In this document: piece after piece, positions 22,002 to 22,652 of the stretch
Position numbering within the stretch: position 1 is the first letter of the stretch
Layout: each line of letters starts with the position of its first letter
Notes under the pieces: generated by a model
Seen by the model: only the letters and a program-made list of their open reading frames with translations
Told to the model about the DNA's origin: nothing
The model's database searches: none
IMG/VR virus record: IMGVR_UViG_2737471866_000003
DNA: 23,513 nt
Origin: a virus
Taxonomy: Duplodnaviria; Heunggongvirae; Uroviricota; Caudoviricetes
Strand: one strand, 5' to 3'
Program-made: the position numbers and the translations under genes

Positions 22002-22105
22002 ACCCGCTCCAGAATGTTTTAAACATGCATCTTGCGAACGACTTTAGGCAAACGGTGTTAGTGATGAACAAAAAACAATCAAAATCGACACCACAAAAAT
22101 AAAAA

Positions 22106-22131
22106 TACTGTAATATCAATCTATTACAGTA
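22106..22131. promoter_or_regulatory. 10 bp perfect inverted repeat TACTGTAATA-N6-TATTACAGTA in the cosB-equivalent region upstream of the small terminase gene
   Basis: Seen directly in the sequence; the region is AT-rich. A candidate small-terminase or other dimeric protein binding site. Confidence 0.35.
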
Positions 22132-22170
22132 GTGGTGATGACGGATGAAATTTCAAAAACTAGCCTTTTT

Positions 22171-22190
22171 CCGCGCCGCTGCCGCCCCGT
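22171..22190 (-). other. cosN-like cohesive-end site
   Basis: Minus strand reads ACGGGGCGGCAGCGGCGCGG followed by AAAAAGG. Lambda cosN and flanks, as I recall them, read ACGGGGCGGCGACCTCGCGG followed by GTTTTCG: the first 10 nt and the CGCGG are identical. The distance to the small terminase start (about 180 bp) matches the lambda cosN-Nu1 spacing. Confidence 0.45.
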
Positions 22191-22541
22191 GGCAGACCAC
22201 CCCACCGGAAGGACCCGTACAAATAGAGTTATTATTAATTACATTTACAGTAGGAATGATGTACATCATTGAAACACCATTCAGTCATATACCGACAGCA
22301 TTCGGTGTTGCACTTCATAACTCTGCGACTACGGTTATAAAATCATTGGCTACTTTTGCCACCGGCAAATCTTCAATGGATTTCCCCTGCCGGTTTTTTA
22401 TTTTCATCGATGCATAACATTGCTTTTACATCAATAGCAGCTATTGTCAGTAGTATGTTGTATCGATGCATGGGTGGTATTGGCGATCTTCGCCGACCGG
22501 TTCTGTGTAGCTCCCTATGACCGGTTTTTTTATTTCTAAGA

Positions 22542-22578
22542 TTATAGAAGTCCTTCACTGTATGAAGGACTTCTATAA
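22542..22578. repeat. Perfect 16 bp inverted repeat with 5 nt loop (TTATAGAAGTCCTTCA-CTGTA-TGAAGGACTTCTATAA), preceded by a T7 run on the plus strand
   Basis: Seen directly in the sequence, 75 bp from the IS3 terminus. Function unknown. Confidence 0.6.
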
Positions 22579-22652
22579 CGCTTCTTACTTTGTAATTTTC
22601 GCACCTTCCGGTAATTCCATAGGTTAAAAAAACCTCATAATCTCTGACAATT

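What the first reader, a model, noticed from the sequence alone, without database searches (positions are those of the whole stretch)
22002..22652. Least-explained stretch of the window: about 650 bp between the small terminase gene and the IS3 end
This segment has no convincing protein-coding gene. Both track ORFs here (22145..22417 plus, 22373..22558 minus) lack good start contexts and run across the cos-like or palindromic sequence. The segment holds the cos-like motif, two perfect inverted repeats and an AT-rich tract, so it is probably packaging-related cis DNA from the right end of the phage chromosome, but a small RNA or small protein cannot be excluded.
Basis: partly seen in the sequence, partly recalled or inferred. 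Interest (0 to 1): 0.4.

Follow-up and report, generated by a model that had tools for sequence, protein, structure and literature searches.

The report
Prophage cos site plus terminator-bearing spacer
The left third of this stretch is the ordinary DNA-packaging (cos) site of a lambda-like prophage; the rest is conserved non-coding DNA with two tandem transcription terminators that may mark undescribed small-RNA genes, and neither open reading frame in it is a real gene.

Summary
The described features are all present. Window 22002-22216 is a complete lambda-like cos site read on the minus strand: cosQ GGGTCCT (22210-22216), a 12-nt cohesive end GGGCGGCAGCGG (22176-22187), and a cosB-like segment reaching the small-terminase start (position 187 of the mature chromosome; lambda's is 191). 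Phage cdtI's deposited genome ends fall at exactly this junction.

The remaining two thirds (22228-22652) is not packaging DNA. The same module occurs in phages with a Terminase_2-type small terminase and no adjacent cosQ. It contains:
- two paralogous non-coding units, each ending in a plus-strand intrinsic terminator (T1 and T2);
- a 16-bp stem-loop with compensatory substitutions;
- an 11-codon remnant of an upstream late gene;
- a 32-bp junction to a DUF1398-bor cassette, cut by IS3.

Both ORFs fail comparative tests. The 51-nt T1 block is about as conserved as the cosN-cosQ segment.

The two units look like short plus-strand sRNA genes convergent with the late operon. The promoter evidence for this is weak, and there are no expression data, no Rfam match and no literature match.

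Verdict: mostly ordinary and explained, with one modest untested sRNA lead.

The parts
21507..22001 (-). Small terminase gene (context): DUF1441 / phrog_141, 164 aa. Its start codon is position 187 of the predicted mature chromosome.
   Evidence: Pfam DUF1441 E = 2.7e-41. PHROG terminase small subunit E = 7e-74. 100% identical to the TerS of phage Ayreon and 99.4% to mEp460.
22002..22175 (-). cosB-like segment. It contains three R-like 10-mers (22132-22141, inverted 22085-22094, 22058-22067), the palindrome TACTGTAATA-N6-TATTACAGTA (22106-22131) and an I2-like stretch (22146-22175).
   Evidence: This segment changes together with the terS type, while cosN and cosQ stay constant. The outer positions of the palindrome change in a compensatory way among 26 DUF1441-type variants. 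The R-like motif is only weakly enriched.
22114..22126 (+). IHF core consensus TATCAATCTATTA (WATCAANNNNTTR), in the centre of the cosB palindrome.
   Evidence: It is the only match in the whole 23.5-kb window, where 0.5 is expected by chance. In relatives, variation falls in or next to the degenerate N4 positions.
22176..22187 (-). cosN: predicted 12-nt 5' cohesive end GGGCGGCAGCGG, flanked by CG dinucleotides at both nick sites.
   Evidence: Alignment with the lambda ends. The cdtI record starts GGGCGGGAGCGT and ends ...CTGCCACG at the same junction. Bases 1-7 equal lambda's; the differences at 8, 9, 11 and 12 lie in the half that PMC4669245 describes as free to vary.
22210..22216 (-). cosQ: GGGTCCT, starting 29 nt upstream of the nick (30 nt in lambda).
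   Evidence: Identical to lambda's 7-bp cosQ. The cosN-cosQ segment is near-invariant across five cosB types. The 14 nt from 22203 to 22216 are invariant there by construction, because they were the search pattern.
22228..22405 (+). Unit 1: a conserved non-coding module. It contains a promoter-like TTGCAC-16-TACGGT (22308-22335), a small hairpin (22348-22360), the terminator hairpin T1 (22361-22394) and the U tract TTTTTTATTTT (22394-22404). The candidate sRNA is about 60 nt, 22343-22404.
   Evidence: Variable sites are spread evenly over codon positions, and indels put the ORF into three frames. In the T1 block 46 of 51 positions are invariant, against 66 of 135 in the rest of unit 1 (Fisher p = 9e-8). 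Fold. The promoter-like site holds the same position in 30 of 30 variants but is not significant on its own.
22406..22536 (+). Unit 2: a paralogue of the 3' 60 nt of unit 1. It contains a promoter-like TTGCTT-16-TATTGT (22420-22447), a small hairpin (22482-22494), the terminator hairpin T2 (22495-22526) and a U tract (22525-22535). It is absent from about 40% of related loci.
   Evidence: Unit 1 against unit 2 local alignment scores 41, against a maximum of 38 in 500 shuffles. Presence and absence. 35 variants.
22542..22578 (.). Stem-loop I1: a 16-bp perfect hairpin directly after the stop codon of the upstream late gene. The functional strand is unresolved.
   Evidence: 89.9% of cells are paired, and 3 pairs carry compensatory double changes, a count reached in 3 of 500 shuffles. 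Variants listed.
22585..22620 (-). Remnant of the last 11 codons plus the stop (MELPEGAKITK*) of a late accessory gene that is intact in relatives (...MELPEGAVVTE*).
   Evidence: tblastn and translation. Alignment.
22621..22652 (+). Junction sequence leading, in uninterrupted relatives, to a plus-strand DUF1398 (ybcV-like) and bor cassette. In the window it is cut by IS3.
   Evidence: L001 annotation. Junction comparison and the 3-bp ATT target duplication seen in L002.
22653..23513 (-). IS3 right end and transposase orfB (context).
   Evidence: L002 annotates an IS3 family transposase at the same insertion site.

Best explanation
The interval is where the two ends of a lambda-like prophage chromosome meet.

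**Packaging site (22002-22216).** Read on the minus strand, which is the strand of the late genes, this is a complete cos site. By analogy with lambda:
- The DUF1441 small terminase binds cosB. cosB here has R-like repeats and a palindrome centred on an IHF site.
- This positions the large terminase to nick cosN 12 nt apart, producing the 5' overhang GGGCGGCAGCGG.
- cosQ, 29 nt upstream, serves termination of packaging at the next cos.

**Non-coding tail of the virion right end (22228-22652).** This part is unrelated to packaging. It holds:
- one ancestral and one duplicated mini-unit, each ending in a strong plus-strand intrinsic terminator, so convergent with the late operon;
- a structurally conserved stem-loop that follows the last late accessory gene, of which only 11 codons remain here;
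- the first 32 bp of the approach to a DUF1398-bor cassette, separated from its gene by an IS3 insertion.

**Shown:** sequence identity of cosQ and cosN to known cos sites, the modular conservation pattern, absence of coding signal, terminator orientation, and hairpin covariation.

**Inferred:** terminase and IHF binding, the actual cleavage positions, and any transcription.
For: **cos**
- cosQ, the 12-nt end and the flanking CG dinucleotides align with lambda.
- The deposited ends of phage cdtI coincide with the predicted nick.
- The differences from lambda lie at bp 8, 9, 11 and 12, the half that Feiss et al. describe as variable (gifsy-1 differs at 8, 9, 11).
- terS starts at position 187, against 191 in lambda.
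- cosB co-varies with terS type while cosN and cosQ are constant.
- The only IHF core match in the window sits in the cosB palindrome.
- The gene next door is a small terminase.

**Remainder**
- The module occurs without cosQ beside ParB_N and Terminase_2 genes.
- Both ORFs are rejected.
- T1 and T2 hairpins are followed by U tracts on the plus strand only.
- Units 1 and 2 are paralogous.
- The T1 block is highly conserved.
- I1 shows covariation.
- Gene remnant.
- DUF1398-bor downstream in intact relatives, and the IS3 target duplication.
Against: - No virion end sequence exists for this phage or for its 100%-TerS relatives. Ayreon's cos was only assumed, not mapped.
- The R-like repeats are only weakly enriched: the motif with up to 2 mismatches occurs 57 times in the window.
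- The tool's own terminator scan found none, because T1 and T2 have interrupted stems or long loops outside its rule.
- The function of the 110 bp upstream of T1 in unit 1 is unexplained, and no consensus structure was found there on either strand.
- G-U and A-C patterns in I1 do not settle which strand uses it.
Confidence: 0.82

Rival explanations
1. Units 1 and 2 are genes for short plus-strand sRNAs, about 60 nt (22343-22404) and about 83 nt (22454-22535). They would be expressed from the prophage, convergent with and antisense to the late transcript. Each would have an invariant 3' module (small hairpin, terminator, long U tail of the kind Hfq binds) and a variable 5' end. They would act in trans on host RNAs or in cis on the late mRNA. 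This adds to the best explanation rather than replacing it.
For: - Both are strong plus-strand terminators with 11-nt U-rich tails.
- The duplicated segment is the whole two-hairpin 3' module, not only the terminator.
- The 3' 51 nt, loops included, are about as conserved as the cosN-cosQ segment, while the roughly 10 nt before them are the most variable part.
- In all 30 unit-1 variants and all 35 unit-2 variants, the best promoter-like match sits at one fixed position with a fixed 16-nt spacer. The key bases (TTG; TA...T) are essentially invariant, with one exception among 30, and substitutions fall in the spacer.
- A divergent homologue in PhiR12-type phages also has TTGTAT-17-TAAATT just upstream.
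- The architecture parallels the 51-60 nt prophage anti-sRNAs, which have a conserved 3' region and a variable 5' end (PMC4104026).
- In K-12 prophages the same slot holds an independent plus-strand gene, ylcI or ynfO.
Against: - The promoter scores are at chance level: 59% of shuffled sequences reach the score.
- There are no expression data.
- No Rfam family matches, even at E <= 10.
- No paper contains the sequence.
- There is no covariation in T1, because it does not vary.
- No notable complementarity to other parts of the window was found.
Confidence: 0.4
2. T1 and T2 are only insulating terminators. They would stop stray plus-strand (antisense) transcription coming from the structural-gene side, so that it does not run into the DUF1398-bor cassette and antisense to the lysis genes. 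No dedicated RNA product is involved, and the sequence conservation reflects frequent recombination at a module boundary.
For: - Sequence immediately after the T1 U tract is a mosaic breakpoint, with three different continuations.
- The promoter evidence is not significant.
- Tandem terminators are common at cassette boundaries.
Against: - A pure terminator should tolerate compensatory and loop changes. Yet 46 of 51 positions, including the 21-nt interior of the hairpin, are invariant.
- The duplication includes the upstream small hairpin.
- No plus-strand gene or strong promoter lies upstream that would need terminating.
Confidence: 0.3
3. The whole 650 bp is packaging-related cis DNA: an extended cos with accessory sites to the right of cosQ.
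For: In 118 of 123 loci the module lies at a nearly fixed distance (166-169 nt) from cosQ.
Against: - Four loci carry units 1 and 2 and I1 with no cosQ immediately upstream, beside ParB_N and Terminase_2 genes.
- Lambda, which has the same cosQ and cosN, lacks the module.
- Per PMC4669245, packaging termination needs only cosQ, cosN and I2.
Confidence: 0.05
4. One of the ORFs (22145..22417 +, 22373..22558 -, or a smaller one) encodes a small protein.
For: - The ORFs exist.
- Some phage records annotate hypothetical proteins here.
- phrog_35283 matches the first 28 residues of the plus ORF.
Against: - The plus ORF spans cosN, so it is split in virion DNA.
- It runs through its own terminator and appears in three frames, with one in-frame stop, among 30 variants.
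- The minus ORF is open in 3 of 35 variants.
- Variable sites are spread evenly over codon positions (13/12/15 and 14/17/18), which excludes all six frames.
- No Pfam family matches.
- PGAP annotates nothing here.
Confidence: 0.03

Closest known systems
cos site of lambda-like phages (lambda, 21, phi80, N15, Gifsy-1), as defined by Feiss and colleagues
   Same: - 7-bp cosQ GGGTCCT.
- 12-nt 5' cohesive end identical to lambda's at bp 1-7.
- CG at both nick sites.
- An I2-like stretch.
- An IHF site inside cosB.
- terS start about 190 nt from the end.
- cosB specificity changes with TerS while cosQ and cosN are shared.
   Different: - The TerS is DUF1441 (47% identical to Gifsy-2, 100% to Ayreon), not lambda Nu1.
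- The cohesive end differs from lambda's at bp 8, 9, 11 and 12.
- cosQ lies 29 nt, not 30 nt, from the nick.
- The IHF core sits inside a 10-11-bp-arm palindrome with only 6 bp between the arms.
- The R3-I1-R2-R1 assignment here is tentative.
Prophage anti-sRNAs AgvB/AsxR (EcOnc01-03; Rfam RF02702, RF02703) of EHEC lambdoid prophages
   Same: - Short predicted length (about 60 nt).
- Invariant 3' region of about 50 nt with a terminator and long U tail, and a variable 5' end.
- Convergent with the late operon.
- Present as related copies within lambdoid prophages.
   Different: - No sequence or structure similarity: no Rfam hit at E <= 10.
- Located at the junction between the lysis and packaging genes next to cos, not at the pR' insertion site downstream of Q.
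- Expression, Hfq binding and targets are untested.
Moron cassettes at the right end of lambdoid prophages (bor; DUF1398 ybcV/ydfO; DUF3950 ylcI/ynfO in DLP12 and Qin)
   Same: Independent plus-strand units inserted between the lysis genes and cos, on the strand opposite to the late operon. DUF1398-bor follows this interval in intact relatives.
   Different: Units 1 and 2 have no ORF. They show no similarity to ylcI, ynfO or ybcW.
Lambda OOP RNA (a short antisense RNA with its own promoter and intrinsic terminator)
   Same: It would be a short terminator-ended RNA fully complementary to a long phage transcript.
   Different: Different location and sequence. This is an analogy of mechanism only, from general knowledge, and was not tested here.

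Membership tests
lambda-like cos site | 12-nt 5' cohesive-end sequence with the left half (bp 1-7) as in lambda | tested here: met
   GGGCGGCAGCGG against lambda's GGGCGGCGACCT: bp 1-7 and bp 10 are identical. Criterion taken from PMC4669245.
lambda-like cos site | Conserved CG dinucleotides flanking both nick positions | tested here: met
   ...CACG|GGGC...GCGG|CGCGG.
lambda-like cos site | 7-bp cosQ GGGTCCT about 30 bp upstream of cosN | tested here: met
   Exact match at 22210-22216, 29 nt before the nick.
lambda-like cos site | cosB with an IHF site between cosN and terS | tested here: met
   WATCAANNNNTTR at 22114-22126 is the only match in 23.5 kb. The consensus positions are conserved in 26 variants. 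This is a consensus match only; binding was not tested.
lambda-like cos site | Three R sequences (R3-I1-R2-R1, with R2 inverted) bound by TerS | tested here: inconclusive
   TCATCACCAC-like 10-mers occur in the right order and orientation (22132-22141, inverted 22085-22094, 22058-22067). The motif with up to 2 mismatches is common in the window.
lambda-like cos site | Small and large terminase genes immediately downstream | tested here: met
   DUF1441/phrog_141 TerS and phrog_15 TerL.
lambda-like cos site | Terminase actually cuts here to give cohesive ends | not testable with these tools
   The only indirect support is that the cdtI record's ends lie at the same junction.
Intrinsic (Rho-independent) terminator | Stable hairpin followed directly by a U tract on the transcribed strand | tested here: met
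   T1 is 22361-22394 followed by U6AU4. T2 is 22495-22526 followed by U7AU3. Both hold on the plus strand only; the minus strand has an A tract before the hairpin and no U tract after it. The simple scanner missed them because of its loop rule.
Hfq-type sRNA gene / prophage anti-sRNA | Own promoter giving a discrete short transcript | tested here: inconclusive
   A positionally fixed promoter-like site is present in all variants, but its score is at chance level.
Hfq-type sRNA gene / prophage anti-sRNA | Similarity to a described RNA family (AgvB, AsxR, STnc100, Esr41 and others) | tested here: not met
   No Rfam hit at E <= 1 over 1.6 kb. At E <= 10 there is only noise, far below the gathering scores.
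Hfq-type sRNA gene / prophage anti-sRNA | Detected RNA, Hfq binding, targets | not testable with these tools
   No paper contains the sequence. No relevant literature was found.
Protein-coding gene | ORF and reading frame conserved in relatives, with excess third-position variation | tested here: not met
   No Pfam match.

The most novel reading that the evidence does not exclude
Units 1 and 2 define an undescribed family of short prophage sRNAs, found in about 4-5% of complete E. coli genomes. They sit at the junction between the lysis and packaging genes beside cos, convergent with the late operon. Their 3' module of about 50 nt is nearly invariant and their 5' end is variable. They would act either as trans regulators or sponges of host RNAs, as AgvB and AsxR do, or as cis-antisense RNAs that damp leaky late-operon expression in lysogens.
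Probability: 0.35. Interest if true: 0.55.

Novelty: new member of a known kind. Interest (0 to 1): 0.3.

Why it matters
**Annotation.**
- It fixes the exact chromosome ends and cos anatomy for the DUF1441-terminase group of E. coli phages (Ayreon, mEp460 and relatives). Ayreon's cos was only assumed to lie somewhere upstream of terS.
- ORF calls across cos, including one PHROG family, are artefacts.

**Evolution.** It shows a clean example of module exchange inside the conserved cosN-cosQ segment.

**The open lead.** The only part with discovery potential is the pair of terminator-ended units. If transcribed, they would add a second conserved sRNA insertion site in lambdoid prophages, besides the one downstream of pR'. 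That would give an easily testable candidate regulator carried by about 250 sequenced E. coli strains, including ETEC H10407.

Tried and rejected
- **Rfam.** A search at E <= 1 over 21400-23000 and at E <= 10 over 22225-22600 gave nothing meaningful. ARAGORN found no tRNA or tmRNA.
- **Protein families.** Pfam and PHROG on all ORFs in the interval gave nothing, apart from a PHROG family built from spurious ORFs across cos.
- **K-12 counterparts.** The genes in the equivalent slot of K-12 prophages (ylcI, ynfO, ybcW) show no similarity to the window at protein or DNA level.
- **Other species.** Two scans of one genome per species found the module in no other species: one gave zero hits and the other five unrelated chance hits.
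- **Literature.** A full-text search for the T1 sequence, and for sRNA together with cos site, found nothing. The Pas sRNA preprint and the anti-sRNA paper place their RNAs near Q and the holin genes, not here.
- **Structure in unit 1.** RNAalifold on the upstream part of unit 1 found no conserved structure on either strand. The inverted repeat 22270-22278/22304-22312 is broken in most variants.
- **Targets.** Complementarity between the candidate sRNAs and the rest of the window is at chance level.
- **TerS structure.** A sequence search of TerS against PDB chains found no homologue.
- **Apparent new architecture.** An apparent hit to the 3' block alone (H139-H141) was a BLAST break caused by a 1-nt insertion, not a new architecture.
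- **Window-specific promoter.** The promoter TTCATA-18-TAAAAT at 22314-22343 scores best in the window but is destroyed in most relatives.

Full report
**Context.** The window carries the late genes of a lambdoid prophage on the minus strand.
- The large terminase is at 19405-21507. A 164-aa DUF1441/phrog_141 small terminase is at 21507-22001.
- This small terminase is 100% identical to that of the viable phage Ayreon, 99.4% to mEp460, 47% to Gifsy-2 and 42% to cdtI.
- IS3 begins at 22653.
- In uninterrupted relatives the interval is followed by plus-strand DUF1398 (ybcV-like) and bor genes, then the lysis cassette on the minus strand. NCBI's pipeline annotates no gene in the interval.

**Observation.**
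- the two ORFs;
- the cos-like motif;
- perfect inverted repeats with 16-nt arms (22542-22578) and 10-nt arms (22106-22131);
- an AT-rich tract with GC 0.31-0.38.

**The left third is a complete lambda-like cos.**
- The minus strand reads GTACGGGTCCTTCCGGTGGGGTGGTCTGCCACG|GGGCGGCAGCGG|CGCGGAAAAAGGCTAG. Lambda reads TTACGGGTCCTTTCCGGTGATCCGACAGGTTACG|GGGCGGCGACCT|CGCGGGTTTTCGCTA.
- This gives cosQ GGGTCCT at 22210-22216, and the 12-nt cohesive end at 22176-22187 with CG at both nick sites.
- Bases 1-7 of the end equal lambda's. The differences at 8, 9, 11 and 12 lie in the half that Feiss et al. (PMC4669245) report as free to vary; gifsy-1 differs at 8, 9 and 11. The same paper reports cosQ and the flanking CGs as conserved.
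- The deposited genome of phage cdtI starts GGGCGGGAGCGT and ends ...GGGTCCTTCCGGTGGGGTGGCCTGCCACG, exactly this junction.
- The terS start codon is position 187 of the predicted mature chromosome. Lambda's Nu1 starts at 191.

**cosB.**
- The segment between cosN and terS (22002-22175) behaves as cosB should. In an alignment of 40 related loci it falls into at least five unrelated classes that go with the terS type. The cosN-cosQ segment is near-invariant across them, though the 14 nt used as the search pattern are invariant by construction.
- The window's only match to the IHF core consensus is at 22114-22126 (0.5 expected in 23.5 kb). It lies in the centre of the palindrome TACTGTAATA-N6-TATTACAGTA.
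- Among 26 DUF1441-type variants the ATCAA and TTA positions are fixed, and the variation falls in or next to the N4 positions. The outer palindrome positions change in a compensatory way: T..A, C..G, and TC..GA against CC..GG.
- Three TCATCACCAC-like 10-mers occur in an R3-I1-R2(inverted)-R1 order. Feiss (PMC9026076) describes this arrangement for Gifsy-1. The motif is too common for this to be firm.
- Binding and cutting are inferred from lambda and were not tested.

**The right two thirds are not packaging DNA.**
- A module starting about 12-16 nt right of cosQ (22228) is shared by all five cos classes.
- Four loci (L128, L141, L170, L183) carry it with no cosQ immediately upstream. In L128, the one examined, it lies upstream of a ParB_N gene and a Terminase_2-type small terminase.
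- Lambda lacks it.
- It was found only in E. coli phages and prophages: 246-266 of 5,426 complete genomes and no other species' representative genome.

**Anatomy of the module.**
- Unit 1 (22228-22405) ends in a small hairpin (22348-22360), a terminator hairpin T1 (22361-22394) and TTTTTTATTTT.
- Unit 2 (22406-22536) ends in a small hairpin (22482-22494), T2 (22495-22526) and TTTTTTTATTT.
- The last 60 nt of the two units are homologous: the alignment scores 41, against a maximum of 38 in 500 shuffles.
- Unit 2 is missing from about 40% of loci. There the T1 tail runs straight into the next element.
- That element is stem-loop I1 (22542-22578). It is 89.9% paired across 20 variants and has three pairs with compensatory double changes, a count reached by 3 of 500 shuffles. 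Wobble and mismatch patterns do not say which strand uses it.
- I1 lies a few nucleotides after the stop codon of a minus-strand late gene. In the window only the last 11 codons survive (MELPEGAKITK*, 22585-22620, against ...MELPEGAVVTE* in relatives).
- The last 32 bp lead to the DUF1398-bor cassette. IS3 has inserted 95 bp before the DUF1398 start, and the sister locus L002 shows a 3-bp ATT target duplication.

**Neither ORF is a gene.**
- Among 30 distinct unit-1 variants, a 2-nt and a 1-nt indel put the plus ORF into three different frames downstream of 22336. One variant has an in-frame stop. The ORF also crosses cosN and its own terminator.
- The minus ORF is open in 3 of 35 variants.
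- Variable sites are spread evenly over codon positions (13/12/15 and 14/17/18). This argues against all six frames.
- The phrog_35283 match to the first 28 residues of the plus ORF reflects similar spurious calls across cos in other phage records.

**What the units might be.**
- The U tracts follow the hairpins only on the plus strand. T1 and T2 would therefore terminate plus-strand transcription, convergent with the late operon.
- In an alignment not selected on this block, 46 of 51 positions of the T1 block are invariant, against 66 of 135 in the rest of unit 1 (Fisher p = 9e-8). That is as conserved as the cosN-cosQ segment and includes the loop. The roughly 10 nt just upstream are the most variable.
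- In all 30 unit-1 variants the best (in the window itself, the second-best) promoter-like match is TTGCAC-16-TA(A/C)GGT at 22308-22335. In all 35 unit-2 variants it is TTGC(A/T)T-16-TATTGT at 22420-22447. The spacer length is fixed and substitutions concentrate in the spacer.
- These positions predict RNAs of about 60 and 83 nt.
- This resembles the 51-60-nt prophage anti-sRNAs, which have a conserved 3' region and a variable 5' end (PMC4104026).
- A divergent homologue lies against the Rz stop codon in PhiR12-type phages and also has a promoter-like site just upstream.
- Against this: the promoter scores are at chance level, since 59% of shuffles reach them. No Rfam family matches. No paper contains the sequence. 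There are no expression data.
- I give the sRNA reading 0.4 and 'insulating terminators only' 0.3.

**Mosaicism.**
- From 22170 rightwards the window is 99.8% identical, including the IS3 insertion, to prophages with an unrelated lambda-Nu1-type cosB and terS (L002, L073).
- From there leftwards it matches DUF1441-type phages at 95-98%.
- The crossover therefore lies inside the universally conserved cosN-cosQ segment.

**Verdict.** The cos site is a new sequence variant of a well-known kind. The terminator-ended units are an unannotated, conserved and testable sRNA lead of modest interest.

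Noticed in passing
window 22145-22228; L002 and L073 against L010 and L113: There is a recombination junction inside cos. To the right of about 22170 the window is 99.8% identical, including the same IS3 insertion, to prophages with a different lambda-Nu1-type cosB and terS. To the left it matches DUF1441-terminase phages at 95-98%.
   Followed up: partly
window 22650-22655; L002 4481-5747: IS3 sits at the same site in several E. coli genomes (EC11 and others), with a 3-bp ATT target duplication. It lies 95 bp upstream of the DUF1398 start, so it probably separates that gene from its upstream region.
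   Followed up: partly
L128 (IMGVR_UViG_2721755711_000003), about 260 nt either side of the T1 block: Unit 1, unit 2 and I1 occur with no cosQ or cosN beside them. They lie between a 115-aa late gene and a ParB_N gene that heads a Terminase_2-type packaging module.
   Followed up: partly
L197 (phage PhiR12_1) 2469-2552: A divergent T1-like element (83% identity to the T1 block, with a 7-bp first hairpin) lies against the stop codon of Rz, about 340 bp from cos. TTGTAT-17-TAAATT sits just upstream. It is identical in all six loci found.
   Followed up: partly
window 22145-22230 (plus ORF, residues 1-28): PHROG family phrog_35283 matches only the part of the spurious ORF that lies over cosN and cosQ. 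That family appears to be built from ORF calls across cos sites.
   Followed up: no
L126 (K-12 DLP12) 3881-4446; L127 (K-12 Qin) 3757-3990: In K-12 cryptic prophages, the slot between the Nu1 homologue and the DUF1398 gene holds DUF3950 genes (ylcI, ynfO) and ybcW instead of the non-coding units. The slot seems to be a general insertion site.
   Followed up: partly
window 22523-22532 and 22625-22634: The T2 tail GGTTTTTTTA is perfectly complementary to TAAAAAAACC 92 nt downstream. This is probably a chance match between low-complexity sequences.
   Followed up: no
window 22255-22270: The perfect palindrome AATGATGT/ACATCATT near the left edge of unit 1 is present only in the window lineage. 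Most relatives read GATGACGTACATCATT.
   Followed up: no
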